Shown piece by piece: positions 9,949 through 22,897 of a stretch of DNA of 64,000 bases. The DNA lies in the NCBI GenBank assembly GCA_050948825.1, contig JBMNEO010000009.1:68887-132886 (forward strand), given 5' to 3'. The DNA is from Dethiobacteria bacterium (GTDB taxonomy: Bacteria; Bacillota; Dethiobacteria; DTU022; UBA8154). Each line of letters begins with the position of its first letter. Positions within the stretch are counted from its first letter, which is position 1. A program made the translations under genes and the position numbers. Under the pieces are notes generated by a model. It was not told where the DNA came from. It did no database searches and was given only the letters and a program-made list of their open reading frames with translations.

Positions 9949-10085
9949 GGTTTCTCACCCATTCAGGATTTGACGATTAACTGTGCTTAATATCTCTTGG
10001 GCATAAGATTAAGACCTGGTCAGCGCTGTTTAAAGTGGTCAGCGGTCAAAACCTATCCCTATCCTGGCTCTTCCTGCTCCCTGAG

Positions 10086-11486
10086 TTATCCCGCCTCATT
10101 CTGTTCCAGAAAAATTTTTCTGGCTTCGTCAGGCGTGTACTTAATCTCGTCATAAGCCGCATTAGCTTCCATATATTCCAAAAGCTCCAGATATTTCTTT
10201 CTTGAAGCCGAGGCTGTTTTTTTCATTCTATCCTCATAACCGTTCTGGAGCCTGTCATAGTCATCAAAGAGAGGAGGTATATAAAAATCATATTCCTGCT
10301 GCATTTCCATTACCGCTCTGAAAAGCTCCGCAATACTTTTGTCGGGAATATTTTTGATTTCTTTGGCCATCATTTCACCAAAGGCCGCTTGAGTTACCGG
10401 AAGATATCCGGTGGAGGATACAAAGCGCAAGTTTTTTTCCGGTTCGGTAAACCATTTGAGAAAGACTCCTGCCGCGTATTCCTTCTCCCTGTTCGATTTT
10501 AGAATGCACATGCCGCTTCCACGCTGTATGGCTAATTTTTTACCCCCTTCAAAAACCGGATACGGCAGTATGGCATACTCTACCGGTTCCGTGATGTTGT
10601 TTTCATAGGTAACTGCAGGCGGATAGAACAATACCCCGGCAGTAGAGCCCAATGCACATACAATATCACCTGTTTTGGCAAGGTCTGATGAATAGCCGTC
10701 AAAAACAGCAATATGACCATATACTGCCGGACGGTAAAAATAATCCCACAATTTGTTAAATAAAGGAGAAGATAGGTTTAGAAGGTTGTCTTTTAGAAAA
10801 TCATCCCCCAGTTGCTGGTAGCCGATTAAGAAAAGGTTGAAAAGCGAATCAGGCATAAAAAACATTTTACCGTCGTTTTTTATGCCGGGTGTTTGATTGT
10901 CGCTCCATTCATAATAGGCAGACGCTGCCTCAAGAATCCCCTCGAAGGTTCGCAGGTCCTCAAATCTCATATCAGTGTCACTGGCAAACCGGTTAAAAAT
11001 TGTTTTATTTACGAATAATACCTCCGTTGATTTGGCTGTCGGGAAAACATAGAGCTTGTCGTCTGTTAATCTACCTTCTTCTAAAAAACGGGGGACATAG
11101 GCTGCCAGCTCTTCATCCGTAAACTGCTCTCCAATATCGGCCAGCAAACCCTTGTTTGCAAGTATAAGCGCTGTTTTCGGATAAGCCGTGGTAATATCCG
11201 GCAGATCCGGTGCACCCGGATCCTGATTAGCCGCCATTGTCAGCTTTTCATGCAGAGCGGCTGAGCTCGAGATAGAGGTAACGCTGAGGATTATCCCATT
11301 TTCCGCACCGACGGTCTCGTTGAATTCATCAATCATTTCATCCATAGTGTTTTTCATCTGACCGCCGTAATTGTGCCAGATAGTCAGGATAACAGGCTTT
11401 CTGGGATCAAGCGTCCTGCCGGCCTGGCAGCCGCAAATCAAAACCAAGGATGCAGATAATGCAAAAAGCATGATGAATTTTTTCAT
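10086..11486 (-). CDS. extracellular solute-binding lipoprotein (ABC-type SBP, family 1-like), orphan
   Basis: Lipoprotein signal peptide (LVLICGC). Its length and composition fit a sugar-type SBP. No permease or ATPase genes are adjacent. Confidence 0.75.
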   Translation of the reverse strand: MKKFIMLFALSASLVLICGCQAGRTLDPRKPVILTIWHNYGGQMKNTMDEMIDEFNETVGAENGIILSVTSISSSAALHEKLTMAANQDPGAPDLPDITTAYPKTALILANKGLLADIGEQFTDEELAAYVPRFLEEGRLTDDKLYVFPTAKSTEVLFVNKTIFNRFASDTDMRFEDLRTFEGILEAASAYYEWSDNQTPGIKNDGKMFFMPDSLFNLFLIGYQQLGDDFLKDNLLNLSSPLFNKLWDYFYRPAVYGHIAVFDGYSSDLAKTGDIVCALGSTAGVLFYPPAVTYENNITEPVEYAILPYPVFEGGKKLAIQRGSGMCILKSNREKEYAAGVFLKWFTEPEKNLRFVSSTGYLPVTQAAFGEMMAKEIKNIPDKSIAELFRAVMEMQQEYDFYIPPLFDDYDRLQNGYEDRMKKTASASRKKYLELLEYMEANAAYDEIKYTPDEARKIFLEQNEAG

Positions 11487-11521
11487 AGATAACCACGTAT
11501 CCTTTTATTAACCGATTAGGC

Positions 11522-11548
11522 ATATGTTAACTCAGGTATATGTTAACT
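11522..11548. promoter_or_regulatory. direct repeat ATATGTTAACT x2 (16-nt period) upstream of the SBP gene, a candidate operator
   Basis: Copies at 11522-11532 and 11538-11548, each containing the palindrome GTTAAC. They lie 36-62 nt upstream of the SBP start codon. Confidence 0.3.
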
Positions 11549-11609
11549 AATAAAAGGAAAACAGTCAATAAACAAAAATTAATATTTACCAGTTTTACCA
11601 TCGAGTAGA

Positions 11610-11634
11610 AGCCCGGCTGAAAGCCAGCCGGGCT
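11610..11634 (-). terminator. GC-rich hairpin downstream of metF
   Basis: AGCCCGGCTG / CAGCCGGGCT form a 10-bp stem with a 5-nt loop, 48 nt after the metF stop. The U-tract is poor on the minus strand and better on the plus strand. Confidence 0.55.
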
Positions 11635-11681
11635 ATATTATTGCGGATTACGCACTTAACAATGTATTACATTTGCTCATA

Positions 11682-12566
11682 TTAGAAACCTGCGGCCGCC
11701 AGGATATCCGGAACAACTTCCTCCCTGTTTATTGCCATGATATGGACACCATCACATAGCGATTCTTTCTTAATGGCAGCAATCGTGCGCCCAGCGATTT
11801 CGATGCCTTTTTTGAGCGCCCCGCCTTTTGGTGCCTTGGCCAGCTCGTCGATCAGGTTCTGCGGTACAAATATTCCCGGAACATTCTCAGTCATGAATTT
11901 AGCCATCCTGGCAGATGAGAGCAGGACAATCCCTGCCAGGATCTTTACCGGAAATTGGCGGGCATATTCCATAAATTTGGCAAACCTCTCCAGATCATAT
12001 ATTGCCTGGGTCTGAAAATACTCTGCTCCTGCATCCACCTTCTTTTCAAACTTAATTAGTTGGGGCTCAAGCGGATCGGCTTCAGGGGTAACTGTTGCCC
12101 CGGCACAAAACTGGACAGCACCCGAAAGTTTGTTTCCCCCGAGATCAGTCCCGGCCTCCAGCTGCCGGACCAAATTGAGCAGCTGAACAGAATCCAGGTC
12201 AAAAACGCCCTTGGCCGCCCCATGATCACCAACAGGAACGGCATCACCTGTAAGGCACAGGACATTCCTGACACCTCTGCTGTATGCCAGGAGCAGATCG
12301 GCCTGCAGAGCGATACGGTTGCGATCGCGGCAGGTCATCTGTAAAATGGCTTCACCATTCATCTCCATAATTGACTGGCAGCCTCCAATAGATGGGAAAC
12401 GCATGACCGAGCTCTGATGATCGGTTACATTTAAAGCATCAACCTTATCTTTCAGCAACGCAATGTGATGGTTCATCTGCTCAATATTAGTCCCCTTGGG
12501 CGGGCCTATTTCGCTGGTGACTACAAATTTACCGTTTTCGAGCGCCTGTTTAAACTTAGAGACCAT
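11682..12566 (-). CDS. metF: methylenetetrahydrofolate reductase, acetogen-type MetF
   Basis: 294 aa. N-terminus LENGKFVVTSEIGPPKG, with TCRDRN and LCLTGD motifs typical of MTHFR. RBS GGGAGGGAAAAAGG. Confidence 0.85.
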   Translation of the reverse strand: MVSKFKQALENGKFVVTSEIGPPKGTNIEQMNHHIALLKDKVDALNVTDHQSSVMRFPSIGGCQSIMEMNGEAILQMTCRDRNRIALQADLLLAYSRGVRNVLCLTGDAVPVGDHGAAKGVFDLDSVQLLNLVRQLEAGTDLGGNKLSGAVQFCAGATVTPEADPLEPQLIKFEKKVDAGAEYFQTQAIYDLERFAKFMEYARQFPVKILAGIVLLSSARMAKFMTENVPGIFVPQNLIDELAKAPKGGALKKGIEIAGRTIAAIKKESLCDGVHIMAINREEVVPDILAAAGF

Positions 12567-12598
12567 CCTTTTTCCCTCCCTGTTCTGTAATAACCCTT

Positions 12599-13243
12599 TT
12601 ATAATAAACTGGTCATCCTGGGCCGTGGTATAACCTGGTAGTTCTTTGGGGGGTGATATTTGCGCATCAAATCCAGCCGACCCTGTTCTTTTAATCTTTC
12701 ATATATAAGCGTAAATGCACAATCTTTTTCTTTATCTACCTCGCATTTACCTTTGTTCGTACCGCCACAGGGCCCATTTAATAAACCTTTGTGGCAGGCT
12801 GTCAGCGGGCAGATTCCTGCTGTTTCCCCCAGAATACACTGGCCGCATTGGGCACAGGCCTCGATAAAATGTCCCGGGCTTTTTTCCATACCGATAAAAA
12901 GGGTATCCAGAGCCGGGATAACCGGCTTGACTAAATAAGAGTTGACCCGCTGCACGCCCAGCGCGCAGGCCATAACGATAATACACTGCGCATCCTGAAT
13001 GGCTCTTGCATTTTCATTGATAACCTCCGCAGTCATCTCGTCACAAGCAGTGGGTATTACTATCCAACCTGTAACCAGCTTGCCCTCACCCTGCAAGCTC
13101 TCTTTCATCGCCTGAACCTCTTCTATCCCCCCGGTTTTAGCCATAGTTGCACAGGTACCACAGCCAATGAGAAAAATGCGATTAAAATCCTCACTCAATT
13201 GTTTCACTTCATCATAGGGCTTCTGCCTGGTTATCGATTTCAT
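12599..13243 (-). CDS. metV: MetV (methylene-THF reductase C-terminal-domain protein, Cys-rich)
   Basis: 214 aa with Cys clusters GCGTCATMAKTGG and CAQCGQCILGETAGICPLTACHKGLLNGPCGG..GKCEV. It sits immediately upstream of metF. RBS AAGGAGG. Confidence 0.75.
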   Translation of the reverse strand: MKSITRQKPYDEVKQLSEDFNRIFLIGCGTCATMAKTGGIEEVQAMKESLQGEGKLVTGWIVIPTACDEMTAEVINENARAIQDAQCIIVMACALGVQRVNSYLVKPVIPALDTLFIGMEKSPGHFIEACAQCGQCILGETAGICPLTACHKGLLNGPCGGTNKGKCEVDKEKDCAFTLIYERLKEQGRLDLMRKYHPPKNYQVIPRPRMTSLL

Positions 13244-13254
13244 CGTAAACCTCC

Positions 13255-16200
13255 TTACTTTTCTAAATCACAGCGCAGGCACCGGCCGGCCTCCTGAATG
13301 GCCCGCTCTTCCTCAAGACACAGCTCTGTTTCTTTAAAACTATATTTCCTCTCTTCAAACGGGAGCCGTGGTATTTCCGGCCTGAATTGAGGCTCCCAGT
13401 TATCCTCTTCCCCTGTGCCAATGGGACTCTCTTCTTCAATAACGTCGGGCTTAAGGTCATACATTTCAACCCGGGAAGGATCGCCTTTCAGGAATTTATC
13501 GATCGCCAGCGCCCCCCTTCTACCGGCGGCAACAGCCTCTATCACCATATCCGGCCCAAAAACGAAGTCCCCCCCGGCGAATACTCCGGGCACATTGGAA
13601 GCAAGGCTGTTTTTGTCGACAACCAGTGTTTCCCATCTGGTGCGCTCCAATGCACTGTGCGGGGGCAAGAACGACAGATCCGGCGCCTGGCCCACAGCGG
13701 CAAAGACCGTATCGGCCTCAACAAAGAATTCCGAACCGGGAATGGGGAGAGGGCGACGGCGTCCATCAGCGCCCGGTTCACCTAGCTGCATCTGCGTGCA
13801 TTGCAAACCTGCTACTTTCCAGTTATCACTTACAATTCTGGTTGGAGCTGCCAGGAATTGCATTTTTACCCCTTCAGCCAGGGCTTCATCGTATTCCGCG
13901 TCGGATACGGGCATCTCTTCCCGGGAACGGCGGTACAATATGGTTACCTCCTCAGCACCTAGCCTCAATGCGGTACGGGCAGTATCCAGGGCAACATTGC
14001 CGCCGCCAATCACGGCTACGCGCCGCCCTATAGCAAACTGCTTCCCGACTTTTATATCCCTTAAGAACCGCAGCCCATAATAAAAGCCCTCAAGGTCTTC
14101 CAGCTCTCCCGGGATACCGATACGCTGACTTTTTTGAGCACCTGCAGCGATAAAAACAGCCTCATAACCGTCCTTTTTTAGGTCGTCGATCGTGAAGTTG
14201 ATATTAATGGGGGTATTGTATTTAATTTCTACCCCGCGCCTGCTAATATATTCTACTTCTTTATTGATTACCTCCTGCGGCAGGCGGAAGTCCGGAATGG
14301 CAACTGAGAGCATGCCTCCGCCAACGGGAAGAGCCTCAAACACAGTAACCGGATAACCCATTTGAGCAAGAAAATATGCACAGGTAAGCCCGCAGGGTCC
14401 GGCTCCGATAACCGCTACCTTTTGGTGATAAAGAACATTAAAAGGTTCCGGTGGAGGCAGCTGCTCGATATTGTCGAAGTACCAGTCAGCGGCAAAGCGC
14501 TTCAGCGCCTTAATCGCTACCGGATCGTCGAGTTCCCCGCGGCGGCATCTGTTCTCACAAGGGTGATGGCAAATCCGGCCGCAGATGGCGGGAAACGGAT
14601 TGCGCTCCCGAACCGTTTCCACAGCTTCCAGGTATTCACCGGCACCAATATGCGCCACATATTTGGGAATATTCACACCAACCGGGCATGTGTGTTGACA
14701 TGGGGAAACCATCAGGGTATCACATACTGCTGCAGGACATTTCTTTTCCTCTATATGTGCCTTATACTCATCTTCAAAATATTTGAGCGTGGTCAGCACC
14801 GGATTGGGACAGGTCTGCCCCAGCCCGCAAAGGGAGGTTTCCTTCACTGTTTTTGCTATTTGCTTCAAAGTATCCAGATCCCCATCTCGTCCTTTCCCCT
14901 GGGTAATTCTGGTCAGTATTTCCAGCATCTGCCTGGTGCCAAGGCGGCAAGGAATGCATTTTCCACAGGATTCCGACTGGGTAAAACTGATGAAGTACCT
15001 GGCAATTTCCACCATGCAAGTGGCATCATCCATAACAACCATACCGCCTGAACCCATGATTGACCCCAGTTGGGAAAGGGTTTCATAGCCAACGGGTGTA
15101 TCAATAAGGCGGGCAGGGATGCAGCCGCCTGATGGGCCGCCTGTTTGCACCGCTTTGAACTCTTTCCCGCGGAGTATACCCCCGCCTATATCATTTATAA
15201 TGGTGGATAACGGCGTTCCCATGGGGACCTCCACCAATCCGCTGTTATTGACTTTACCGGTGAGGGCAAAAACTGCCGTACCTTTGCTTCTTTCTGTACC
15301 CAGGCCGGCAAACCAGTCCGCTCCGCGCCCTAGAATAGCTGCAACAGATGCAAGGGTCTTGACATTATTGATGATCGACGGTTTGCCGTCCAGGCCGGAC
15401 TGTGCCGGAAAAGGAGGACGGGGACGGGGCATCCCCCTGCGGCTTTCAATGGAAGCTATTAGTGCTGTTTCCTCACCACAAACGAAAGACCCGGCACCTT
15501 CCTTCACCTTGATTTTAAAATTAAAATTCGTATTGAGGATATCGTTACCTAAAAATCCTTTTGCCTGTGCCTGCTCCAGGGCTACACGGATGCGTTTAAC
15601 CGCCAGGGGGTATTCGGCACGGACATAAATATAGCCTTCGTCCGCCCCGATCGCATAGCCGGCGATGGCCAGGCCTTCGACCACGGCGTGCGGATCCGCC
15701 TCTAAGATAGAGCGATCCATGAAAGCGCCCGGATCACCTTCGTCTGCATTGCAGATAACGTATTTTTTCTCGCCGGGCGCACTGCGGCAGAATTCCCATT
15801 TGCGGGCAGTGGGAAAGCCGGCACCCCCGCGGCCGCGCAAGCCTGCTTTGGCTATTTCATCAATCACTTCTTGTGGTGTCAGCTCTAAAAGAGCCCTTTT
15901 TAATCCCTGATATCCGCCCCAGTCGATACTATCGTCAATTTTCTCCGGATTGATGTGGCCGCATCTATGGAGAATAATCCGTTGCTGCTGCCTGTAAAAA
16001 TTGACTTCAGCATAATGCGGGATTGCCTGACCGGTTACCGGATCGTGATAGAAAAGCCGCTCTACAGGTTTGCCGTCCCGCAGATGGGATTGAACAATTT
16101 CTGCAGCATCCTCCGTTTCTACCCTGTTATAGAAAATTCCTTCCGGCTCGACAATGACAATTGGTCCTTGCTCGCAAAAACCGTGACAGCCGGTAAAGTC

Positions 16201-16320
16201 CACTGTAACTCCGGCAAGCTCAAGTTTTGCCACTTCGGCCTTGAGCAGCTCATAGATTTCATGGGAGTTGCTGGCCTGACACCCTGTTCCCTGACAGATA
16301 AAAATTTTATGTTGACTCAT
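13255..16320 (-). CDS. fusion flavoprotein: HydB/NuoF-like NADH-FMN-FeS module plus GltD/NfnB-like FAD/NADPH oxidoreductase module
   Basis: N-terminal thioredoxin-like 2Fe-2S. NuoF motifs GLRGRGGAGFPTARKW and ESCGKCIPCRLG. A 2x[4Fe-4S] linker. Then the GltD-type part: FPAICGRICHHPCENRCRRG plus dinucleotide folds VAVIGAGPCG and VAVIGGGNVA. Start set at ATG 16320 after AAGGGGGAG. Confidence 0.85.
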   Translation of the reverse strand: MSQHKIFICQGTGCQASNSHEIYELLKAEVAKLELAGVTVDFTGCHGFCEQGPIVIVEPEGIFYNRVETEDAAEIVQSHLRDGKPVERLFYHDPVTGQAIPHYAEVNFYRQQQRIILHRCGHINPEKIDDSIDWGGYQGLKRALLELTPQEVIDEIAKAGLRGRGGAGFPTARKWEFCRSAPGEKKYVICNADEGDPGAFMDRSILEADPHAVVEGLAIAGYAIGADEGYIYVRAEYPLAVKRIRVALEQAQAKGFLGNDILNTNFNFKIKVKEGAGSFVCGEETALIASIESRRGMPRPRPPFPAQSGLDGKPSIINNVKTLASVAAILGRGADWFAGLGTERSKGTAVFALTGKVNNSGLVEVPMGTPLSTIINDIGGGILRGKEFKAVQTGGPSGGCIPARLIDTPVGYETLSQLGSIMGSGGMVVMDDATCMVEIARYFISFTQSESCGKCIPCRLGTRQMLEILTRITQGKGRDGDLDTLKQIAKTVKETSLCGLGQTCPNPVLTTLKYFEDEYKAHIEEKKCPAAVCDTLMVSPCQHTCPVGVNIPKYVAHIGAGEYLEAVETVRERNPFPAICGRICHHPCENRCRRGELDDPVAIKALKRFAADWYFDNIEQLPPPEPFNVLYHQKVAVIGAGPCGLTCAYFLAQMGYPVTVFEALPVGGGMLSVAIPDFRLPQEVINKEVEYISRRGVEIKYNTPININFTIDDLKKDGYEAVFIAAGAQKSQRIGIPGELEDLEGFYYGLRFLRDIKVGKQFAIGRRVAVIGGGNVALDTARTALRLGAEEVTILYRRSREEMPVSDAEYDEALAEGVKMQFLAAPTRIVSDNWKVAGLQCTQMQLGEPGADGRRRPLPIPGSEFFVEADTVFAAVGQAPDLSFLPPHSALERTRWETLVVDKNSLASNVPGVFAGGDFVFGPDMVIEAVAAGRRGALAIDKFLKGDPSRVEMYDLKPDVIEEESPIGTGEEDNWEPQFRPEIPRLPFEERKYSFKETELCLEEERAIQEAGRCLRCDLEK

Positions 16321-16801
16321 GTTGCTCCCCCTTTTGCTTAAATAGCCGCCCAATTTTTTTAGGGTTCATTCTGCCATGGACATGCTGATCAATAACCAAA
16401 CTGGGAGCCAGCGCACAAACGCCAAGACAGGCCACTGTCTCTAATGTGTATTCCAGATCATCTGTAGTCTCGCCTTCATCTACCCCCAGATGTTGTTTTA
16501 CCAGTTTGAGGACAGTTTTTCCACCCCGGACATGGCAGGCTGTCCCCCGGCAGACCCGCACCGTTTTCTTGCCGCGGGGTTCGGTGTACAACTGGGCATA
16601 AAAGGAGATTACCCCTTGCACTTCACTGGGAAATAGTTTCAGTTTGTCGGCGATAACCGGGATTGCCTGAGGAGGAATGTAACCGAGCTCGTTCTGGATT
16701 TTCTGCACCATCGGAATTAGAGACCATTGCTCATCGCTGTACTCCGCAACAATTTCATGCAAACGCGTCCAATCAACCTGCACTTCCTTTTCCTTATGCA
16801 T
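16307..16801 (-). CDS. NuoE/HydC-like [2Fe-2S] thioredoxin-like ferredoxin subunit
   Basis: 164 aa with motifs VCRGTACHVRG and ACLGVCALAP. The stop overlaps the downstream start by 14 nt. Confidence 0.85.
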   Translation of the reverse strand: MHKEKEVQVDWTRLHEIVAEYSDEQWSLIPMVQKIQNELGYIPPQAIPVIADKLKLFPSEVQGVISFYAQLYTEPRGKKTVRVCRGTACHVRGGKTVLKLVKQHLGVDEGETTDDLEYTLETVACLGVCALAPSLVIDQHVHGRMNPKKIGRLFKQKGEQHEST

Positions 16802-16805
16802 GGAT

Positions 16806-19460
16806 TCAGCCCCTTTCTATCCGGACATAACATGTTTTTCGGGCAGAAGTATTAGCCGGCGTTTCCGGGAGAAAACTGAAAAGACCGGATATGGAATGTT
16901 CTGCTGCAGAGCGCGGAAGTGTAGCAGTCCCCTCCGGCAACGAACCGACGATCTCCGCCACCGCCTGCAGTTGCCCCTCAGGTGAGACAACCCGGACCTG
17001 ATCCCCTGAGCGCAGCCCCATCTTTTGAGCGTCAGCTTCATTAATCCGCACCTTAATAGAAGGGGAAAATTTGCTCAATCTCCTGGAATTTGCACTTCTA
17101 ACCCCGCTGCCTGAGTGATACAAGGAAGTCTCTGCCAGCAGAATATAAGGATAGCTATCATCCGACGCCTTTGCCGGGGGGCTATATTCCGCCAGTGAGA
17201 AACAGGGGAAACTTTTTAAAGGCAGCTTGTAATCAAACCTTGTATTCCATAACTCTTGCTCTTCCGGGCTATCTACGTCGCGTTCATTTCTATATAACGG
17301 CACTAATTCCCTGATTTCATCCATAACCTGCTGGAGAGAAGAAAACGGCAGTGGTTTTTTCATAGCTTCAGCCAGCTGCAGTATTATCTCCCAATCGGGC
17401 CTACTTTCGCCCACAGGATCAATCGCTTTATGGATAGTTTGCACCTTGCCTTCCAGGTTGGTAAAGGTTCCTTCTTTTTCGGCAAAGCCGGCCGCGGGCA
17501 AAACAACTTTGGCCAGTTTGGCTGTTTCTGTCAGAAACAGATCCTGAACGACCAGGAAGTCCAGAGAAGCGAGCGCTTCTTTAACCAGAGCGGCCTGGGG
17601 AAAACCGGCCAGAGGATTTTCACCGGCTATATACAGCCCTTTTATTTTTCCTTCCCCGGACTGTTTGATTATTTCTAAAGCACCTGCCCCTGGTCTGGCA
17701 GGCAGGAGCACATCCCAGCGTGCTTCAAATATATTTCTGGCCTCTGCTTCCCCTACATGCTGATAGCCCGGCAAGAAATCCGGCAGCGCTCCCATATCAC
17801 AGGCACCCTGTGCATTGCAGTCCCTCTGGAGTGCATGCAGCCCGCCGCCTTTGCGCCAGGTGTTACCGGTCAGCAAGGTAAGGTTGATGAGTGCTTTTAC
17901 GTTTTCCACCCCCAGTTCCTGCTGGGTGATCCCAGTGCCATAAACAATCGCCGCTTTGCCGGCTGCAGCATAAAGCCTGGCGGCGTAGCGCATCTGCTCC
18001 ACACCAACGCCTGTTACGGCCTCTCCTGTTTCCAGAGGATAGTTGCTCAGTGCTTCGGCCAACAGTTGGAATTTATCCGTTTTCCGGGCTACGAATTCCC
18101 GATCGATCAGATTTTCTTCAATAATCACTTTGGCCAGGCAATTCAGCAGTGCCAGGTCGGTGCCCACCCTGGGCTGCAACCAGCAATCGGCAAAAAAGGT
18201 TAGCTTTGTCCGGCGCGGATCGATCACGATCAATTTGGCTCCGCGAAGTTTAACTGCCCGTTTAATCTGATAGCTTACCAAAGGAGCTGAAGCCTCCGGA
18301 TTAGCTCCAATTAATAGGATTACTTCGGCCTGCTCTAAATTTTTCAGGCTTTGTGTAATGCCGGGAAAACCAAAAGTGTCGCTGAAAGCCCGGAGTGTTG
18401 TATTATAATAAAGGCTGCTGCCGTTATCGATATTATTTGTACCCAGCACGCCCCGTGCAAACAACTGTAACAGGTAGTTTTCTTCATTGGTGCAGTTGGC
18501 GGAGCCTATTACCGCCAAACTGTCCGCGCCATGTTCTTCTTTAATCTTTTCAAAAGCCCCCGCCGCCATCGTCAGGGCTTCTTCCCAGGTTGCCTCCTTA
18601 AAATCACCGTTTACTTTTATTAATGGTTTGCTCAACCTCTTCGGGCTATGGATGAAATCACAACCGTAGCTGCCTTTAACACATAGCGCCTCCTGATTGT
18701 CTTGCTCTTCAAATGCCGGCTTTACCCGGGCAACCTGGTTATCCTTTATCTCAAGCGAGATGCTGCATCCACAGCCGCAATAGGGACACGTTGTTTGAAC
18801 AGCATTTCCGATAGCCCCCCTGTACAGCGCCTCTTTTTCCATTAAAGCCCCCGTAGGACATAGAGCCACGCAGGTTCCACAAAATGTGCATTCCGAATAT
18901 TCCAGGGGAGAATTATTTAAGGTAGCCGGCTTTGCCTTAAACCCCCGGCCGAAATAATCAAAAGCACCTTCAATAACCAGCTCCTGGCAAGCCCGAATAC
19001 ACCTGGCACATAAAATACACTTGCTCATATCTCTGACGATAAAGGGGTTTACTTCTTCGGTAACAGCCGGCTGCGGAATTCTGTCTAATTCAATTAAGCC
19101 AATTCCTAAATCCGCAGCCAGCTGGCGCAGTTGGCACTGGTTTCCTTTATCGCATACCAGGCAAGAATCGGGATGGCTGGCAAGAATTAACTTGAGGATC
19201 ATCTTGCGATGTTCCAGAACTCGCGGAGACTCGGTGTTGATAATCATCCCCGGTGCGATAGGGGTAACACAGGATGCCAGCAAAGCACCGTTTTGTTCAT
19301 TCTCCACCAGACAAAAACGGCATGCCCCAATGGGAGTGAGCTTGGAATGATGGCAGATAGTGGGGATATTTATGCCGGACTCCCGGGCAAGTTCCAGAAT
19401 TGTCATCCCTGGATGGCCGCTAACTTCTTGCGTATTAATAGTTAACGTTACCGGTTGCAA
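16806..19460 (-). CDS. FdhA/NuoG-like molybdopterin-oxidoreductase-fold subunit with an N-terminal FeS domain; FDH catalytic residues absent
   Basis: N-terminal 2Fe-2S (CHHSKLTPIGACRFC), a His-ligated cluster (HPDSCLVCDKGNQC), two ferredoxin-type 4Fe-4S clusters, and the MopB 4Fe-4S (CPYCGCGCS). GTNNIDNGSSLYYN stands where FDH-H has GTNNVDCCARVUHG. The likely start is TTG 19460, after AAAGGAGGA. Confidence 0.8.
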   Translation of the reverse strand: MQPVTLTINTQEVSGHPGMTILELARESGINIPTICHHSKLTPIGACRFCLVENEQNGALLASCVTPIAPGMIINTESPRVLEHRKMILKLILASHPDSCLVCDKGNQCQLRQLAADLGIGLIELDRIPQPAVTEEVNPFIVRDMSKCILCARCIRACQELVIEGAFDYFGRGFKAKPATLNNSPLEYSECTFCGTCVALCPTGALMEKEALYRGAIGNAVQTTCPYCGCGCSISLEIKDNQVARVKPAFEEQDNQEALCVKGSYGCDFIHSPKRLSKPLIKVNGDFKEATWEEALTMAAGAFEKIKEEHGADSLAVIGSANCTNEENYLLQLFARGVLGTNNIDNGSSLYYNTTLRAFSDTFGFPGITQSLKNLEQAEVILLIGANPEASAPLVSYQIKRAVKLRGAKLIVIDPRRTKLTFFADCWLQPRVGTDLALLNCLAKVIIEENLIDREFVARKTDKFQLLAEALSNYPLETGEAVTGVGVEQMRYAARLYAAAGKAAIVYGTGITQQELGVENVKALINLTLLTGNTWRKGGGLHALQRDCNAQGACDMGALPDFLPGYQHVGEAEARNIFEARWDVLLPARPGAGALEIIKQSGEGKIKGLYIAGENPLAGFPQAALVKEALASLDFLVVQDLFLTETAKLAKVVLPAAGFAEKEGTFTNLEGKVQTIHKAIDPVGESRPDWEIILQLAEAMKKPLPFSSLQQVMDEIRELVPLYRNERDVDSPEEQELWNTRFDYKLPLKSFPCFSLAEYSPPAKASDDSYPYILLAETSLYHSGSGVRSANSRRLSKFSPSIKVRINEADAQKMGLRSGDQVRVVSPEGQLQAVAEIVGSLPEGTATLPRSAAEHSISGLFSFLPETPANTSARKTCYVRIERG

Positions 19461-19509
19461 ACGAAATCCTCCTTTCAAATACGCTTTTGTTCATATCCTT
19501 AAAAAGATG

Positions 19510-19525
19510 ATTAGACCGGTCTAAT
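19510..19525. promoter_or_regulatory. perfect 16-bp palindrome ATTAGACCGGTCTAAT between the tandem-REC gene and the metFV operon
   Basis: It lies 50-65 nt upstream of the TTG 19460 start (32-47 nt upstream of TTG 19478). It could be an operator or a weak terminator for the upstream gene. Confidence 0.3.
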
Positions 19526-19548
19526 TCATACAAAAAATATTTTGCTTT

Positions 19549-20304
19549 TTAGCTTGCCGCCCTGATCGCTTCCACCAGTTGCGAACCGATACTTTTTTTG
19601 GAAATAAAGCCAAAGGCTCCGGCCTGTTTGCTGGCGGCAATATTATCTTCATCATCATATTGACTTAAAACTAGAATTTTCACCTCCTTACAATTGCGGG
19701 TGATCTGCTTCGTTGCTTCAATACCGTTCATTGCCGGCATTGCAAGATCCATAAGCACTACATCCGGCAGCAGTTTTGTAGTTTTTTCAATAGCGTCTTG
19801 ACCGTCTGTTGCTTCCCCGATTATTACGATATCTTTTTGCAAATTTAGAAGGGCGGATACCCCTTCTCTTATTACGGCATGATCATCCGCAATAAGCACC
19901 TTGATCTTTCTCGTAGTCTCATCCAGCAGTTTCTCGATTACGTTGGCCAGAAATGAAGGTTTTATCGGTCTGCTTAAATAATCCTCAACTTCCAGCCTGA
20001 GCCCCTCATCCCTCCTCCATCCACTGACCAGTTGCTTTTCCGGCGGAGCATCAACGACAACAATCGGCAGATTCTTTGTAACAGGCATTGCCTTTAACCA
20101 CTGGTGCAGTTGAAAAGCATCACCGCGAGGAGAAATTACACCCAAAACAATAAAGTCGGGCTTACGTGTACGTACTATTTCCTCGGCTTGTGATTTATGA
20201 ATAGCAATAGAAACATCATAGTTCCTTTTTTCAAGCTCTGCCCGCAGACCCTCAGTAAAATCTACTTCCTTATCGACAATGAGAATTTTTTCTTTCACTT
20301 TCAT
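19549..20304 (-). CDS. tandem-receiver response regulator without output domain (pseudo-REC + REC)
   Basis: REC1 lacks the phospho-acceptor: IVLGVISP stands where xxxDxxMP is expected, and DKE replaces DD. REC2 is canonical (LIADDHAVIREG ... VVLMDLAMPAMNG ... K). Confidence 0.8.
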   Translation of the reverse strand: MKVKEKILIVDKEVDFTEGLRAELEKRNYDVSIAIHKSQAEEIVRTRKPDFIVLGVISPRGDAFQLHQWLKAMPVTKNLPIVVVDAPPEKQLVSGWRRDEGLRLEVEDYLSRPIKPSFLANVIEKLLDETTRKIKVLIADDHAVIREGVSALLNLQKDIVIIGEATDGQDAIEKTTKLLPDVVLMDLAMPAMNGIEATKQITRNCKEVKILVLSQYDDEDNIAASKQAGAFGFISKKSIGSQLVEAIRAAS

Positions 20305-20486
20305 CGACCTCCTTTCAGAGTTATATTTAAAATTTTTTATGTTCTGAATTTTTTCTTTAAATATATTCTAACTTCGTTATTCAATAGTGTAAAGCGGCAT
20401 AGACCTGAATATTGATGGCCGTCTTGCCCTATATTTTCCGGAAGATCACCTGAATAATAATCGTCTTAATAAAGAAAAAGAAACCT

Positions 20487-20545
20487 TTTTTAAGGTTTTC
20501 TCTTAAGGAATCAGACCGAATTTTAAGGTTTTTTCTTAGGGGATC
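20487..20545. repeat. direct repeat TTTTAAGGTTTT(C/T)TCTTA(A/G)GG(A/G)ATC x2 (34-nt period)
   Basis: Copies at 20487-20511 and 20521-20545. The hairpin GATCGGAAAAAATCCGAT follows, just after the stop of the NarL-type regulator. Confidence 0.7.
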
Positions 20546-20566
20546 GGAAAAAATCCGATTAAATTC

Positions 20567-21220
20567 TTACATTGAAATAATCTTTTTTTGCAGGGCGTAC
20601 TTAATCAGCTCCGCCCGATTGCGTAGCTCAAGTTTGGCCATAAGCCTGGTTTTATGGCTGTCTACAGTTTTAGGGCTGATGACGAGCATCTTTGCAATTT
20701 CTTTATTCGTATGCCCTTCGGCCAGCAAACGCAGCACCTCTTTCTCTCGCCCGGTAAGCTGTTCGTAGGGATCGCGTTTCTTTTTTATATTAGCTTCCAG
20801 TTGATAGTTTTTGATCAAATGCTTCGTTGCTGACGGAGAAAGATATGAATCGCCACGGTAGACCGAACGGATAGCTGAAACAAGTTCGGATGAGGCTGCG
20901 GATTTATTGAGGAAGCCGTGAGCGCCGGCCTCAAGAATAGAAAAAACATGTTCTTCATCACTATACTGGGTAAGAATAATTACTTTTATCCCAGGAAACT
21001 CTTTACACATAGCAAGGGTTGCTTCAAGACCACTCATTCCAGGCATAGAGAGGTCCATAAGCACTATATCAATTTTATGCTTACCGGCGATTTCCAAGGC
21101 TTCATTTCCATTGCCGGCTTCTCCGACAATCTCTATTTCAGGTGAAAGCTCCAGCAAGGCACAGAGACCTTCCCGCACGATGGTGTGATCATCGACCAGT
21201 AATACTCTGATTTTACGCAT
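20567..21220 (-). CDS. NarL/FixJ-family response regulator (REC + LuxR HTH)
   Basis: VLLVDDHTIVREG, VLMDLSMPGMSG, and the C-terminal LTGREKEVLRLLAEGHTNKEIAKMLVISPKTVDSHK. Confidence 0.9.
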   Translation of the reverse strand: MRKIRVLLVDDHTIVREGLCALLELSPEIEIVGEAGNGNEALEIAGKHKIDIVLMDLSMPGMSGLEATLAMCKEFPGIKVIILTQYSDEEHVFSILEAGAHGFLNKSAASSELVSAIRSVYRGDSYLSPSATKHLIKNYQLEANIKKKRDPYEQLTGREKEVLRLLAEGHTNKEIAKMLVISPKTVDSHKTRLMAKLELRNRAELIKYALQKKIISM

Positions 21221-21298: not shown

Positions 21299-22576
21299 TT
21301 ATCGCAAGGGAATAACTGCGATTACCGTGGTTCCTTTTCCCGGTTGAGAATGGACTGTTAAATCCCCGCCGAAGAGTTTCATCCTTTCTTTGGCGATCAT
21401 AAGACCCATACCGTTTTTTCTTTTTTTAGGAATTATTTTTCCTATTTGCGTAACGTCAAAACCTATACCATCATCTTGAATGCATATTTCCAGCTTGTGA
21501 TCTTTCTCCATCATAGAAATAGTGACATTTTGGGCCTGGGAGTGCCGCACAACATTTCCGATCATCCCCTGCGCCCAGCGAAATAGATTAACTTCAATTT
21601 CCGGCAAAAGAGTGACACCTGCTTCCTTTATATCAAAATTGACATTGATCCCCAGCGGAAGAAGGCAGGATTCGGCATAATGGCGAATTGCGGGGATGAA
21701 CCCATGCAAATCAAGGAGTACAGGGCGGAGATCAGAGACGAGACGGTTAACCTCATTGTTTATCTGAATAGTCGAAGCATGTGTTTTTGTTAACATAGTT
21801 TTGAATTTGTTATCCTGAATCCCGATTATTTCAGCCATCTCAATCAGCACCTGCAAGTTCAAGGTCAAAGCGGCCAGCATCTGGCAGGTTTCATCATGCA
21901 GTTCCTGTGATATTCTTTTCTTTTCTTCTTCCTGAGCAGTGATAACCTGTAACGCTACCTGCCGGATCTTTTCTCTCTTATTCAGCAGTTTGGCATGCAA
22001 CCTGGCCTGACCAATAGCCAAACCAAGTTGGTCGCCCACGGAGTGCAAAAGATGCATATCCTTTTCGGTGAACTGGCGTGCAAGCGGGCTTGCACAGTTT
22101 AACACCCCCAATACTCTTTCCCTGTAACGCAAAGGAACGCTGATAAAAGACCGCAAACTTTTTTTGTTGATAAGGTTGCAGGATAAAGCAACTTCCGGTT
22201 CGTTTGAAATGTCATTCATCAGAATAGCCTTCCCGGTTAGCGCAACCCTCCCGTTTACACCTTCTCCTATTTTAACGGATATATTCTCTGCAAAATCATC
22301 GGGAAGGCCGCGATAAACACAATATGTGAGGTATTTATCCCGATCGTCCAGAAGCAAAATCCCGCCGCATATCCCTCCCATATACTCAAGCGTCTTTTCC
22401 AGCCCTACTCTCAAAATAGCATTTAATTCACATAAACCGCTTACCGCAGAAGTTACACGGCTAATAATTAAAAGAGCATCAATGATTTCATCATCTTCCA
22501 ACTTTTGATAAGGCTTGATATTATCAGCTGATAAGGCAGTTTCCGTCGTTTGGGTTTGATTATTTCTCGCTAACAT
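21299..22576 (-). CDS. GAF-domain sensor histidine kinase (HisKA_3/NarX-DegS type)
   Basis: GAF region, H-box ISQELHDETCQ, and an HATPase G-box (GMGLMIAKERM ... GKGTTV). Start at ATG 22576 after GGGAGG. Confidence 0.85.
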   Translation of the reverse strand: MLARNNQTQTTETALSADNIKPYQKLEDDEIIDALLIISRVTSAVSGLCELNAILRVGLEKTLEYMGGICGGILLLDDRDKYLTYCVYRGLPDDFAENISVKIGEGVNGRVALTGKAILMNDISNEPEVALSCNLINKKSLRSFISVPLRYRERVLGVLNCASPLARQFTEKDMHLLHSVGDQLGLAIGQARLHAKLLNKREKIRQVALQVITAQEEEKKRISQELHDETCQMLAALTLNLQVLIEMAEIIGIQDNKFKTMLTKTHASTIQINNEVNRLVSDLRPVLLDLHGFIPAIRHYAESCLLPLGINVNFDIKEAGVTLLPEIEVNLFRWAQGMIGNVVRHSQAQNVTISMMEKDHKLEICIQDDGIGFDVTQIGKIIPKKRKNGMGLMIAKERMKLFGGDLTVHSQPGKGTTVIAVIPLR

Positions 22577-22897
22577 AATTATACCTCCCAACAATAAATA
22601 GCGAAAAAACGGTCTATACAGGCCGAAGCTTCTCTAATGCATAAATTGTCTGAATTGTAAGCCTATTCTTATTATAGAGCAACCAGGCAATTATTGTCAA
22701 TAGGGAATTACTGTCAACGGCAACCGAAGAGAAGTTATTTTAAACAGCCTGTATATACCTCATTATACTGGTTTGTTTTTTAGTTTTATATTCACATTTT
22801 TGCAGGTGCATCATATTGTATGTATGATTTCCTTCGCCCGTGACAGTTTGATTGGACTATTGCAGGATGGTACAATCATAGTTTTGATCATAGATAC

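What the first reader, a model, noticed from the sequence alone, without database searches (positions are those of the whole stretch)
11682..19478. metFV joined in one operon to a NuoE + NuoF::GltD (Stn/Nfn-like) module and an FdhA/NuoG-like subunit: candidate undescribed type of methylene-THF reductase complex
Five co-directional genes are packed with spacings of 4, -14, 11 and 32 nt:
- an FdhA/NuoG-like subunit (16806-19460);
- a NuoE/HydC-like 2Fe-2S protein (16307-16801);
- a 1021-aa fusion (13255-16320) of a HydB/NuoF NADH-FMN module (GAGFPTARKW, ESCGKCIPCR) with a GltD/NfnB-type FAD/NADPH module (VAVIGAGPCG and VAVIGGGNVA folds);
- MetV (12599-13243) and MetF (11682-12566).

The characterised acetogen-type MTHFR architectures I know are MetF alone, MetFV, MetFV plus RnfC2, and MetFV-HdrABC-MvhD. 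NuoE-like, NuoF-like and NfnB-like parts together are the composition of the Sporomusa-type Nfn transhydrogenase (StnABC).

Linking such a two-nucleotide-site, FeS-rich flavoprotein module to MetFV suggests an NADH/NADPH-coupled MTHFR, possibly also ferredoxin-coupled and electron-bifurcating. I do not recognise this as a described type.
Basis: partly seen in the sequence, partly recalled or inferred. Interest (0 to 1): 0.75.

Follow-up and report, generated by a model that had tools for sequence, protein, structure and literature searches.

The report
NuoEFG/GltD-linked MetVF methylene-THF reductase operon
A real, tightly packed and widely conserved gene cluster joins the Wood-Ljungdahl enzyme methylene-tetrahydrofolate reductase (MetVF) to a rearranged NADH/NADPH iron-sulfur flavoprotein module; this "pentameric" reductase has already been flagged in print but never characterised, and it could explain how this step is coupled to energy.

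Summary
Five co-directional minus-strand genes (11682-19460) encode a NuoG/FdhA-like protein, NuoE, a 1021-aa NuoF::GltD fusion, MetV and MetF, spaced 4, -14, 11 and 32 nt.

The same order recurs without exception in more than 30 loci from Bacillota (Dethiobacteria-like MAGs), Syntrophomonadaceae bins and Dehalococcoidia. A GAF histidine kinase, a LuxR regulator and a double-receiver gene always lie upstream, so the conserved unit is eight genes.

It is not an undescribed type. Frank et al. 2016 noted the cluster and detected its proteins. Yi et al. 2021 named MetFV-NuoEFG a hypothetical pentameric "X-type" MTHFR. No biochemistry was found.

New details found here:
- The FdhA-like subunit lacks the catalytic Cys/Sec-His-Arg in every orthologue, so it is not a formate dehydrogenase.
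- The NuoF half is of the electron-bifurcating BfuB type, but its C-terminal two-cluster ferredoxin-reducing domain is replaced exactly by an NfnA/StnC-type NADPH-FAD domain.
- The same fusion serves hydrogenases elsewhere.

Most likely this is an NAD(P)H-linked, probably energy-coupled MetVF complex. The main rival is a separate Stn-like transhydrogenase that is only co-expressed, as with the stnABC genes next to metVF in Sporomusa ovata.

The parts
21299..22594 (-). GAF + HisKA_3 + HATPase_c sensor histidine kinase; first gene of the conserved eight-gene unit
   Evidence: Pfam. An orthologue sits at the same position and orientation in Bacillota and Dehalococcoidia loci at 42-88% identity.
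20567..21220 (-). Response regulator with receiver and LuxR/GerE DNA-binding domains
   Evidence: Pfam. Conserved upstream of the cluster in loci L010-L024 at 59-94% identity.
19549..20304 (-). Protein made of two receiver domains with no output domain
   Evidence: Pfam gives two Response_reg stretches. It lies directly upstream of the NuoG-like gene in all loci with enough flank.
19511..19524 (.). Perfect 14-bp palindrome TTAGACCGGTCTAA in the 88-nt spacer before the NuoG-like gene; candidate operator for the LuxR-type regulator (inferred)
   Evidence: It is the only copy in the window. CCGG-centred palindromes occur at the same place in related loci.
16806..19460 (-). NuoG/FdsA-like iron-sulfur subunit (BfuA-like, 884 aa). 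Cys ligands are present for one [2Fe-2S] and four [4Fe-4S] clusters. The molybdopterin domains are retained but the formate dehydrogenase catalytic residues are lost.
   Evidence: Pfam. Best PDB hits are FdsA of NAD-dependent formate dehydrogenases (538 bits). Rhodobacter capsulatus FdsA C386, H387 and R587 align to Y, Y and Q. The same loss occurs in all MetVF-linked orthologues, whereas a true FdhA (L066) keeps CARLCH and PLRGQ. TIGR01591 scores 607.8, below its cut-off of 666.25.
16307..16801 (-). NuoE/HydC/BfuC-like [2Fe-2S] subunit (164 aa; Cys 84, 89, 125, 129); its stop overlaps the next gene by 14 nt
   Evidence: Pfam 2Fe-2S_thioredx at 7e-46. NCBIfam NuoE scores 147.5 against a cut-off of 141. 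Cys positions.
14710..16320 (-). N-terminal half of the fusion (residues 1-537): a BfuB-type NADH/FMN subunit. It carries the N-terminal thioredoxin-like [2Fe-2S] site (C9, C14, C45, C49), the FMN/NADH loop, the [4Fe-4S] site (C452, C455, C458, C498) and the KKCPAAVC motif. It lacks the C-terminal 2x[4Fe-4S] (B3/B4) domain.
   Evidence: PDB hits to bifurcating HydB/NfnB/StnB score 650-770 bits, against about 360-390 bits for Nqo1/FdsB. The alignment with unfused BfuB proteins shows the ferredoxin-like C-terminal domain replaced directly after KKCPAAVC.
13255..14709 (-). C-terminal half of the fusion (residues 538-1021): an NfnL/GltD-type domain. It has two [4Fe-4S] sites, including the Lys ligand (K607), an FAD fold, an NADPH fold (GGGNVALD...YRRSREEMP) and the terminal RCLRC motif.
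   Evidence: It aligns end to end with residues 102-567 of Caldicellulosiruptor NfnA, Thermococcus NfnA and Sporomusa StnC. The motifs are invariant in all MetVF-linked orthologues.
12599..13243 (-). MetV (214 aa): iron-sulfur/zinc subunit of MetFV-type methylene-THF reductase (NGPCGG and CxxCxxC...CP motifs); the ribosome-binding site overlaps the fusion gene's stop codon
   Evidence: Pfam PF12225 at 8e-36; sequence; ribosome-binding site. No relative has a solved structure.
11682..12566 (-). MetF (294 aa): catalytic flavoprotein subunit of methylene-THF reductase, of the MetFV kind rather than the E. coli NAD(P)H kind
   Evidence: Pfam PF02219 at 2e-43. It scores far below the NCBIfam cut-off for NAD(P)H-type MTHFR (78 against 293.7) and only 46 bits to solved MTHFRs.
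11610..11634 (.). GC-rich hairpin (10-bp stem) 47 nt after the metF stop codon; likely end of the transcript, though the T-tract is weak

Best explanation
The five genes form one operon under a dedicated two-component system. The operon most likely encodes a five-subunit MetFV-type methylene-tetrahydrofolate reductase, the hypothetical 'X-type' MetFV-NuoEFG enzyme.

Proposed roles of the subunits:
- MetF (flavin) reduces methylene-THF, or oxidises methyl-THF.
- MetV passes electrons through its Fe-S clusters.
- The other three proteins are a rearranged Nfn-Bfu (StnABC/NfnABC-like) module that links MetV to pyridine nucleotides.
- NuoE and the BfuB-type half of the fusion hold the FMN/NADH site with its neighbouring clusters.
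- The NfnL/GltD half holds an FAD/NADPH site with two [4Fe-4S] clusters.
- The NuoG/FdsA-like protein, which has lost its formate-oxidising residues, serves as a five-cluster wire and docking scaffold.

What is shown: the domain content, the cofactor ligands, the loss of the formate dehydrogenase active site, the exact replacement of the ferredoxin-reducing B3/B4 domain by the NADPH-FAD domain, and synteny across phyla.

What is inferred: physical association with MetVF (about 0.6) and the coupling mode.

My preferred coupling (about 0.35 overall) is flavin/cluster-based bifurcation. In the reductive direction, NADH at the FMN site sends electrons downhill to methylene-THF (E0' -200 mV). It sends electrons uphill through NuoE and the GltD clusters to NADP+, or to ferredoxin docking on the GltD clusters. 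In the oxidative direction used by syntrophic acetate oxidisers and Dehalococcoidia, NADPH or reduced ferredoxin would drive the otherwise endergonic oxidation of methyl-THF with NAD+.

A plain, uncoupled NAD(P)H:methylene-THF reductase using either nucleotide is the simpler sub-case (about 0.25).
For: Domains and motifs.

Tight spacing, a 14-nt overlap, ribosome-binding sites overlapping stop codons, no internal terminator and a hairpin after metF.

Synteny:
- The order NuoG-like, NuoE, fusion, MetV, MetF is found in every locus whose fusion protein is at least 72% identical, wherever the contig extends. This covers Bacillota/Dethiobacteria, Syntrophomonadaceae bins and Dehalococcoidia, and includes a second paralogous copy in one lineage.
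- The kinase, regulator and double-receiver genes travel with the cluster.
- The flanks outside the eight genes differ between lineages.

Other points:
- MetVF here has no Hdr or RnfC2 partner.
- The module lacks the B3/B4 domain, so it cannot be a canonical Stn/Nfn-Bfu enzyme. Deleting B3/B4 abolished bifurcation in Thermoanaerobacter kivui HydABC (PMC11829005).
- The same NuoF::GltD fusion sits in NiFe- and FeFe-hydrogenase clusters, which marks it as a plug-in nucleotide module for a catalytic partner.
- NuoF-type modules join MetV repeatedly: a MetV-RnfC fusion carrying Complex1_51K (P0396) and a minimal NuoE-NuoF(398 aa)-MetV-MetF cluster (L096).
- MetV relatives at 49-50% identity lie instead in ordinary acs/fhs/folD clusters.
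- Per Frank 2016, all five proteins of such a cluster were detected in a biogas metaproteome.
- Yi 2021 reached the same hypothesis independently.
Against: - There is no direct evidence of a physical complex or of any activity.
- In Sporomusa ovata, stnABC lies directly downstream of metVF, yet Stn purifies and works alone. Conserved adjacency may therefore reflect shared regulation only.
- MetFV alone is active with reduced ferredoxin in Clostridium ljungdahlii.
- No Rosetta-stone fusion of MetV with NuoF::GltD or with the NuoG-like protein appeared among the 150 best representatives.
- A dead Fdh-like domain is also found in stand-alone Stn/NfnABC, so it does not argue for MetVF docking.
- The window holds no other Wood-Ljungdahl genes.
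- The coupling stoichiometry is thermodynamic reasoning, not data.
Confidence: 0.6

Rival explanations
1. Two separate enzymes are merely co-transcribed. One is a soluble Stn/Nfn-like NADH/NADPH (with or without ferredoxin) transhydrogenase made of the NuoG-like, NuoE and NuoF::GltD proteins. The other is an independent two-subunit, ferredoxin-dependent MetVF reductase. They are kept together because both balance redox carriers for the methyl branch.
For: - The Sporomusa ovata precedent: stnABC lies immediately downstream of metVF, but Stn is a stand-alone heterotrimer.
- The module's parts match StnABC/NfnABC best.
- Stn/NfnABC also carries a non-functional Fdh-like domain.
- MetFV alone is catalytically competent in several acetogens.
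- No MetV-module fusion protein was found.
Against: - The module lacks the B3/B4 ferredoxin-reducing domain that defines Bfu enzymes and is needed for bifurcation. It could not run the Stn reaction as known.
- The five-gene order, plus its own regulator set, is invariant across phyla and in a duplicated copy. In Sporomusa ovata, by contrast, MetVF has its own Hdr/Mvh partner genes.
- The same fusion is embedded in hydrogenase operons, where it must be a subunit of the catalytic complex.
Confidence: 0.27
2. The three upstream genes encode a working NAD(P)+-dependent formate dehydrogenase of the FdsABG type. The operon would then link the first (CO2 to formate) and last (methylene-THF reduction) steps of the methyl branch, as Frank et al. 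2016 suggested.
For: - The closest solved relatives of the large subunit are FdsA proteins (4e-160).
- The molybdopterin and MGD-binding domains are retained.
- This is the published annotation.
Against: - The catalytic Cys/Sec, His and Arg (Rhodobacter capsulatus FdsA C386, H387, R587) are replaced by Tyr, Tyr/Asn and Gln in the window and in every MetVF-linked orthologue. A genuine FdhA in the same survey keeps them.
- The protein falls below the curated cut-off of TIGR01591.
- There is no in-frame TGA for selenocysteine.
- It is the least conserved of the five proteins.
- StnC, which has a comparable domain, showed no formate activity.
Confidence: 0.03

Closest known systems
Hypothetical 'X-type' / group III pentameric MetFV-NuoEFG methylene-THF reductase (Yi et al. 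2021, Microbiol Spectr, PMC8515935). The same cluster was noted in the biogas MAG unFirm_1 (Frank et al. 2016, mSystems, PMC5080403).
   Same: NuoE/F/G-homologue genes lie directly upstream of metV-metF. Occurrence in Chloroflexi was reported, and my survey finds the identical five-gene order in Dehalococcoidia. The complex is likewise proposed to be electron-bifurcating. Frank et al. report the proteins as detected in a metaproteome.
   Different: The type is only predicted, and no enzyme has been studied. Neither paper's text, as far as read here, mentions the GltD/NfnL fusion, the missing B3/B4 domain, the dead Fdh site or the linked two-component system. I could not fetch the Dethiosulfatarculus sandiegensis locus to check whether its NuoF is fused. 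An unfused minimal variant also exists (L096).
StnABC / NfnABC (Nfn-Bfu) electron-bifurcating transhydrogenase (Sporomusa ovata, Caldicellulosiruptor saccharolyticus, Thermococcus sibiricus; PDB 8oh5, 9bov, 9n5u)
   Same: The building blocks are the same: a NuoE-like [2Fe-2S] subunit, a BfuB-type FMN/NADH subunit with an N-terminal thioredoxin-like domain, an NfnL/GltD NADPH-FAD domain with a Lys-ligated cluster and a terminal RCLxC motif, and an Fdh/NuoG-like domain without a working pterin site. stnABC even lies next to metVF in Sporomusa ovata.
   Different: Here the NfnL domain is fused to the C-terminus of BfuB, in place of the B3/B4 ferredoxin-reducing domain, rather than to the N-terminus of the NuoG-like subunit. 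The NuoG-like subunit is a separate 884-aa protein and is closer to FdsA. The gene order is G-E-F rather than E-F-(GltD-G). MetVF is always attached.
MetFV-HdrABC-MvhD methylene-THF reductase (Moorella thermoacetica, Sporomusa ovata)
   Same: A MetFV core joined to an NADH-oxidising, Fe-S-rich flavoprotein module, suspected of flavin-based bifurcation with an unidentified second acceptor.
   Different: Its module is HdrA-based (FAD) and is unrelated to NuoEFG/GltD. Neither the Bfu-type FMN site nor the NADPH site is present there.
RnfC2-MetFV NADH-dependent methylene-THF reductase (Acetobacterium woodii)
   Same: MetFV receives electrons from a Complex1_51K-type NADH/FMN domain. A MetV-RnfC fusion of this kind (P0396) was recovered as a MetV relative.
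   Different: It has a single extra subunit and does not bifurcate. It has no NuoE, no NuoG-like wire and no GltD/NADPH site.
FdsABG NAD+-dependent formate dehydrogenase (Rhodobacter capsulatus 6tg9, Cupriavidus necator)
   Same: The three-subunit NuoG-like/NuoF/NuoE layout is shared. The large subunit here aligns over 840 residues with FdsA.
   Different: The catalytic Cys-His-Arg residues are lost. The NuoF is of the Bfu type with an N-terminal [2Fe-2S] domain and an added NADPH-FAD domain.

Membership tests
MetFV-type methylene-THF reductase | MetF subunit with the MTHFR TIM-barrel domain (PF02219) | tested here: met
   PF02219 at 1.6e-43 covers residues 4-292.
MetFV-type methylene-THF reductase | MetV subunit (PF12225, NGPCGG motif, Cys motifs for Fe-S clusters) encoded immediately upstream of metF | tested here: met
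   PF12225 at 8e-36. LLNGPCGG, CAQCGQC...ICP and 13 Cys are present. The gap to metF is 32 nt.
MetFV-type methylene-THF reductase | Methylene-THF reduction activity | not testable with these tools
   Needs an enzyme assay.
X-type / group III MetFV-NuoEFG MTHFR (Yi et al. 2021) | NuoE, NuoF and NuoG homologue genes directly upstream of metVF | tested here: met
   The arrangement recurs in more than 30 loci.
X-type / group III MetFV-NuoEFG MTHFR (Yi et al. 2021) | MetFV sequences cluster phylogenetically with the Dethiosulfatarculus sandiegensis group | tested here: inconclusive
   The reference sequence was not obtainable. Indirect evidence: MetV relatives at 54% identity or more lie in NuoE/NuoF contexts, while those at 49-50% lie in acs/fhs/folD clusters.
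X-type / group III MetFV-NuoEFG MTHFR (Yi et al. 2021) | Five subunits form one complex | not testable with these tools
   No multimer prediction or biochemistry was available.
Bfu (BfuABC) electron-bifurcating family (Schut et al. 2022) | BfuB with Nuo51 FMN-binding, SLBB and NuoF [4Fe-4S] domains | tested here: met
   PF01512 at 8e-48 and PF10589 at 3e-34. PF10531 (SLBB) scores 26.3 bits, just under its cut-off of 27. The best PDB matches are bifurcating HydB/NfnB.
Bfu (BfuABC) electron-bifurcating family (Schut et al. 2022) | BfuB C-terminal 4Fe-4S ferredoxin-type domain (IPR017896; clusters B3/B4, the route to ferredoxin) | tested here: not met
   No Fer4-type Pfam hit occurs in the fusion. 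The alignment shows the domain replaced by the GltD Fe-S domain directly after KKCPAAVC, in this and all orthologues. The family definition is; the role of B3/B4 is.
Bfu (BfuABC) electron-bifurcating family (Schut et al. 2022) | BfuB N-terminal thioredoxin-like [2Fe-2S] site, BfuC (NuoE-like) subunit, and BfuA with at least a [2Fe-2S] and a 4Fe-4S ferredoxin domain | tested here: met
   C9, C14, C45 and C49 are conserved. PF01257 is found in NuoE. Fer2_4 and Fer4_Nqo3 are found in the NuoG-like protein.
StnABC / NfnABC (Nfn-Bfu) transhydrogenase | NfnL/GltD-type NADPH-FAD domain with two [4Fe-4S] clusters | tested here: met
   420 bits to NfnA residues 102-567. The Cys ligands, K607 (equivalent to Lys-170) and GGGN...YRR are conserved.
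StnABC / NfnABC (Nfn-Bfu) transhydrogenase | The NfnL domain is part of the large GltD-NuoG fusion subunit (StnC/NfnA, about 1170 aa), and StnB/NfnB keeps two C-terminal [4Fe-4S] sites | tested here: not met
   Here the domain is fused to BfuB and replaces those sites. Canonical examples appear in L080 and L086.
FdsABG-type NAD-dependent formate dehydrogenase | Catalytic Cys/Sec-His pair and Arg at the Mo/W site | tested here: not met
   C386, H387 and R587 of 6tg9_A align to Y, Y and Q. The same holds in all orthologues.
FdsABG-type NAD-dependent formate dehydrogenase | Score above the curated cut-off of NCBIfam TIGR01591 (Fdh-alpha equivalog) | tested here: not met
   607.8 bits against a cut-off of 666.25.

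The most novel reading that the evidence does not exclude
The complex is a new kind of Bfu-derived bifurcating or confurcating enzyme. The ferredoxin arm of the flavin/cluster bifurcation site has been swapped for an NADPH-FAD arm, and the 'third substrate' is the high-potential methylene-THF/methyl-THF couple.

The proposed reaction is 2 NADH + methylene-THF + NADP+ (or ferredoxin) <-> 2 NAD+ + methyl-THF + NADPH (or reduced ferredoxin).

In the reductive direction this would conserve the roughly 23 kJ/mol otherwise lost at the MTHFR step. In the reverse direction it would explain how syntrophic acetate oxidisers, Dehalococcoidia and complete-oxidising sulfate reducers oxidise methyl-THF with NAD+.
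Probability: 0.3. Interest if true: 0.8.

Novelty: new member of a known kind. Interest (0 to 1): 0.55.

Why it matters
Whether methylene-THF reduction (E0' -200 mV) is coupled to energy conservation is a long-standing gap in the bioenergetics of acetogenesis. So is the reverse question: how methyl-THF oxidation is driven in syntrophic acetate oxidation.

The Hdr-linked enzyme of Moorella still has no identified second acceptor. The plain MetFV enzymes appear to waste reduced ferredoxin.

This operon is abundant in anaerobic-digester Bacillota and in Dehalococcoidia. One MetV variant alone is indexed in 382 blocks of the assembly collection. Per Frank et al. 2016, the proteins of such a cluster are expressed in situ.

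The operon offers a compact five-subunit candidate with defined NADH, NADPH and folate sites that could be expressed and assayed. The exact replacement of the ferredoxin-reducing domain by an NADPH-FAD domain also provides a natural experiment on how the Bfu bifurcation site is wired.

Tried and rejected
- Functional formate dehydrogenase: rejected on active-site residues and the NCBIfam cut-off.
- Apparent loss of the NuoG-like gene in assembly GCA_900198705.1 (L007, L090): rejected as an artefact. That 3.3-Mb 'contig' is a chain of contigs joined by 100-N spacers that cut the genes. A metagenome contig encoding the identical protein has the full gene.
- Rosetta-stone search for MetV fused to NuoF, GltD or NuoG domains among 1.84 billion representatives: none in the best 150. 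Only MetV-MetF, MetV-RnfC, MetV-histidine kinase, MetV-Rieske and ferredoxin-MetV fusions appeared.
- Rfam scan of 9500-24000: no hit.
- Promoter and terminator scans inside the cluster: counts near those of shuffled sequence, hence uninformative.
- Other Wood-Ljungdahl genes in the 64-kb window: none found.
- Literature searches for a biochemical study of MetFV-NuoEFG, or for any Bfu paper mentioning tetrahydrofolate: none found in the held library. Subscription journals are not covered, so a published characterisation cannot be excluded.
- Structure prediction: not run. Only single chains can be modelled and no coordinates or inter-domain distances are returned, so it could not test complex formation.

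Full report
**1. Observation**

Five ORFs lie on the minus strand at 16806-19460, 16307-16801, 13255-16320, 12599-13243 and 11682-12566. The spacings are 4, -14, 11 and 32 nt.

Pfam assigns the following:
- The first protein has a NuoG-type N-terminus (Fer2_4, NADH-G_4Fe-4S_3, Fer4_Nqo3) followed by Molybdop_Fe4S4, Molybdopterin and Molydop_binding.
- The second is 2Fe-2S_thioredx (NuoE).
- The third has a weak N-terminal thioredoxin-like [2Fe-2S] domain, Complex1_51K, SLBB, NADH_4Fe-4S, then Fer4_20 and Pyr_redox_2.
- The fourth is MTHFR_C (MetV).
- The fifth is MTHFR (MetF).

The real starts are TTG 19460 and ATG 16320. Both follow good ribosome-binding sites and agree with gene calls in other assemblies. 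The MetV ribosome-binding site overlaps the stop codon of the fusion gene.

No convincing terminator lies inside the cluster. A 10-bp GC-rich hairpin follows metF, and a promoter-like site precedes the next gene.

**2. Conservation**

The exact fusion protein occurs on 17 metagenome contigs with the same neighbours. It has thousands of relatives. The 120 best are 76-100% identical and are labelled Firmicutes, Chloroflexi or Dehalococcoidia.

A scan of one genome per species returned 80 loci. I called ORFs in all loci and searched them with the five window proteins.
- Every locus whose fusion protein is at least 72% identical has the order NuoG-like, NuoE, fusion, MetV, MetF wherever the contig extends.
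- These loci come from Bacillota MAGs, Syntrophomonadaceae bins and many Dehalococcoidia, including a closed Dehalococcoidales chromosome. There are no exceptions.
- Window-to-Dehalococcoidia identities are 55-61% (NuoG-like), 64-71% (NuoE), 72-78% (fusion), 68-74% (MetV) and 75-80% (MetF).
- One lineage carries a second, paralogous copy of the whole cluster.
- An apparent loss of the NuoG-like gene in GCA_900198705.1 is an artefact of 100-N joins between contigs.

The conserved unit is larger than reported. A GAF-HisKA_3 kinase, a receiver-LuxR regulator and a double-receiver protein (window 19549-22594) precede the cluster in the same order in Bacillota and Dehalococcoidia alike. Genes beyond these eight differ between lineages. 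A unique palindrome, TTAGACCGGTCTAA, lies in the 88-nt leader, and similar CCGG-centred palindromes occur in relatives.

**3. What the parts are**

*Large subunit.* Its closest solved relatives are FdsA subunits of NAD-dependent formate dehydrogenases. However, the catalytic Cys386, His387 and Arg587 of the Rhodobacter capsulatus enzyme align to Tyr, Tyr and Gln. All MetVF-linked orthologues show G-S/G-S/R-L-Y-Y/N at this position. A genuine FdhA picked up in the same survey keeps CARLCH and PLRGQ. The protein falls below the curated Fdh-alpha cut-off, and it is the fastest-evolving of the five. It retains Cys ligands for one [2Fe-2S] and four [4Fe-4S] clusters. I read it as an electron wire and scaffold, not a formate dehydrogenase.

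*Fusion, N-terminal half (residues 1-537).* It matches electron-bifurcating BfuB subunits at 650-770 bits: NiFe-HydB, HydB, NfnB and StnB. Non-bifurcating Nqo1 and FdsB score only about 360-390 bits. It keeps the Bfu-specific N-terminal [2Fe-2S] ligands and the KKCPAxVC motif.

*Fusion, C-terminal half (residues 538-1021).* It aligns end to end with residues 102-567 of NfnA/StnC. That segment is the NADPH-FAD 'NfnL' domain of Nfn-Bfu transhydrogenases. The match includes the Lys ligand of the first cluster, the GGGN...YRR NADPH fold and the terminal RCLxC.

*The junction.* Alignment with unfused BfuB proteins shows that the fusion junction falls exactly where the C-terminal 2x[4Fe-4S] domain (B3/B4) begins. 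That domain is absent and the GltD Fe-S domain takes its place. According to the Bfu literature, B3/B4 carry the low-potential electrons to ferredoxin, and deleting them abolishes bifurcation. The three upstream genes therefore hold the same building blocks as StnABC/NfnABC in a shuffled arrangement that lacks the canonical ferredoxin arm.

*MetF and MetV.* MetF is remote from NAD(P)H-type MTHFRs. MetV has no solved relative.

**4. Context of the module elsewhere**

- More distant NuoF::GltD fusions (44-58% identity) are not next to metVF. They sit in NiFe (Hox-like) and FeFe hydrogenase clusters. The fusion is thus a reusable nucleotide module for different catalytic partners.
- Canonical NuoE, NuoF and GltD-NuoG trios (Stn/NfnABC) were also recovered (L080, L086).
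- On the MetV side, relatives of 71% identity or more that I checked lie in the five-gene cluster.
- A 54% relative lies in a minimal NuoE-NuoF(398 aa)-MetV-MetF cluster.
- Relatives of 49-50% identity lie in ordinary Wood-Ljungdahl clusters without any Nuo genes.
- A MetV-RnfC fusion carrying a Complex1_51K domain, the Acetobacterium woodii type, is a more distant relative.
- No MetV fusion to NuoF::GltD or to the NuoG-like protein was seen.

**5. Literature**

- Frank et al. [quoted passage not shown]
- Yi et al. 2021 reported NuoEFG homologues upstream of metFV in Dethiosulfatarculus sandiegensis. [quoted passage not shown]
- The Bfu family survey does not mention folate enzymes. Its definition requires the ferredoxin-type domain that this fusion lacks, which may be why the clade was missed.
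- Kremp et al. 2020 showed that stnABC lies directly downstream of metVF in Sporomusa ovata, yet Stn is a stand-alone transhydrogenase.
- No biochemical study of the pentameric type was found. Subscription journals are not searchable here.

**6. Mechanism**

Shown: domain content, cofactor ligands, loss of the Fdh site, replacement of B3/B4, operon-like packing and synteny.

Inferred: the five proteins form one NAD(P)H-linked methylene-THF reductase (confidence about 0.6).

The potentials are taken from established values and the papers cited. They are -200 mV for methylene/methyl-THF, -320 mV for NAD(P)H, and about -450 to -500 mV for ferredoxin. NADH-driven reduction of methylene-THF therefore releases about 23 kJ/mol.

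The Bfu-type FMN site with its flanking clusters could split NADH electrons two ways. One electron would go to MetV and MetF through the NuoG-like wire. The other would go through NuoE and the two GltD clusters, to FAD/NADP+ or to a ferredoxin docking on those clusters as in NfnSL. Run in reverse, NADPH or reduced ferredoxin would pull methyl-THF oxidation with NAD+. That is the problem faced by syntrophic acetate oxidisers and by Dehalococcoidia. I give such coupling about 0.3-0.35, and an uncoupled dual-nucleotide reductase about 0.25.

The main rival (about 0.27) is a separate Stn-like enzyme that is only co-expressed with a ferredoxin-dependent MetVF, as the Sporomusa ovata precedent allows. 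The missing ferredoxin arm, the absence of any other MetVF partner and the invariant eight-gene unit argue against it.

A working formate dehydrogenase is very unlikely (0.03).

**7. Verdict**

The finding is real and biologically interesting, but it belongs to a type already pointed out in print and still uncharacterised.

New here are five points: the module's identity as a domain-shuffled Nfn-Bfu without the ferredoxin domain; the inactive Fdh site across the whole clade; reuse of the fusion in hydrogenases; the linked two-component system; and evidence that the eight genes move between phyla as a unit.

Interest is 0.55. Measured against the printed prediction, this is a new member of a known kind. 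Measured against biochemically characterised MTHFRs, it would be a new variant.

Noticed in passing
window 19549-22594 (minus strand); also L009-L025, L093, L094: A GAF-HisKA_3 kinase, a receiver-LuxR regulator and a double-receiver protein always precede the five structural genes in the same order, in both Bacillota and Dehalococcoidia. The conserved, apparently mobile unit is therefore eight genes, not five.
   Followed up: yes
window 19511-19524: A perfect palindrome, TTAGACCGGTCTAA, lies in the leader before the NuoG-like gene and is unique in the window. CCGG-centred palindromes occur at the same place in relatives. It may be the operator of the LuxR-type regulator.
   Followed up: partly
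L032:5866-12973, L037:2-9425, L031:247-11424: More distant NuoF::GltD fusions (44-58% identical) sit in NiFe (Hox-like, with Hyp maturation genes) and FeFe-hydrogenase-like clusters rather than next to metVF. These are candidate hydrogenases with an added NADPH-FAD domain in place of the ferredoxin-reducing domain.
   Followed up: partly
L096:305-3124: A minimal variant exists: NuoE (144 aa), an unfused 398-aa NuoF without the thioredoxin-like or GltD domains, then MetV (54% identical to the window's) and MetF. The contig is too short to show whether a NuoG-like gene precedes them.
   Followed up: no
proteins P0249, P0250, P0341 (relatives of window 12599-13243): MetV-like domains are found fused to a histidine kinase (HisKA + HATPase_c), to an N-terminal 2x[4Fe-4S] ferredoxin domain and to a Rieske domain. 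The kinase fusion suggests that MetV-like modules can act as redox or folate sensors.
   Followed up: no
L007 and L090 (GCA_900198705.1, record FZPS01000036.1): The 3.3-Mb 'contig' of this assembly is a chain of short contigs joined by 100-N spacers. The joins truncate genes, including the NuoG-like gene and one fusion gene, and make gene distances in that record meaningless.
   Followed up: yes
L091:487-8858 compared with L008/L012: One Bacillota lineage carries two paralogous copies of the whole cluster. MetV is 78% and 91% identical to the window's, and both copies have the Tyr-for-Cys change in the NuoG-like subunit.
   Followed up: partly
window 8344-11486 (minus strand): An SBP_bac_8 solute-binding protein and a 534-aa protein with a C-terminal LuxR/GerE domain follow metF. 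They are conserved only in the closest Bacillota relatives (89-91% identity in L010 and L012), not in Dehalococcoidia.
   Followed up: partly
window 30161-37773 (minus strand): A dense signalling block: a PAS-HisKA hybrid kinase with two receiver stretches, a 1284-aa GAF-HisKA_2 kinase, and a Ser/Thr protein kinase fused to an AAA_16 ATPase domain.
   Followed up: no
window 24034-24513 (plus strand): A full-length DUF6530 protein (3e-88) lies between the hydrolase gene and an ABC/FtsX pair. It is also present in the related contig L002. Its function is unknown.
   Followed up: no
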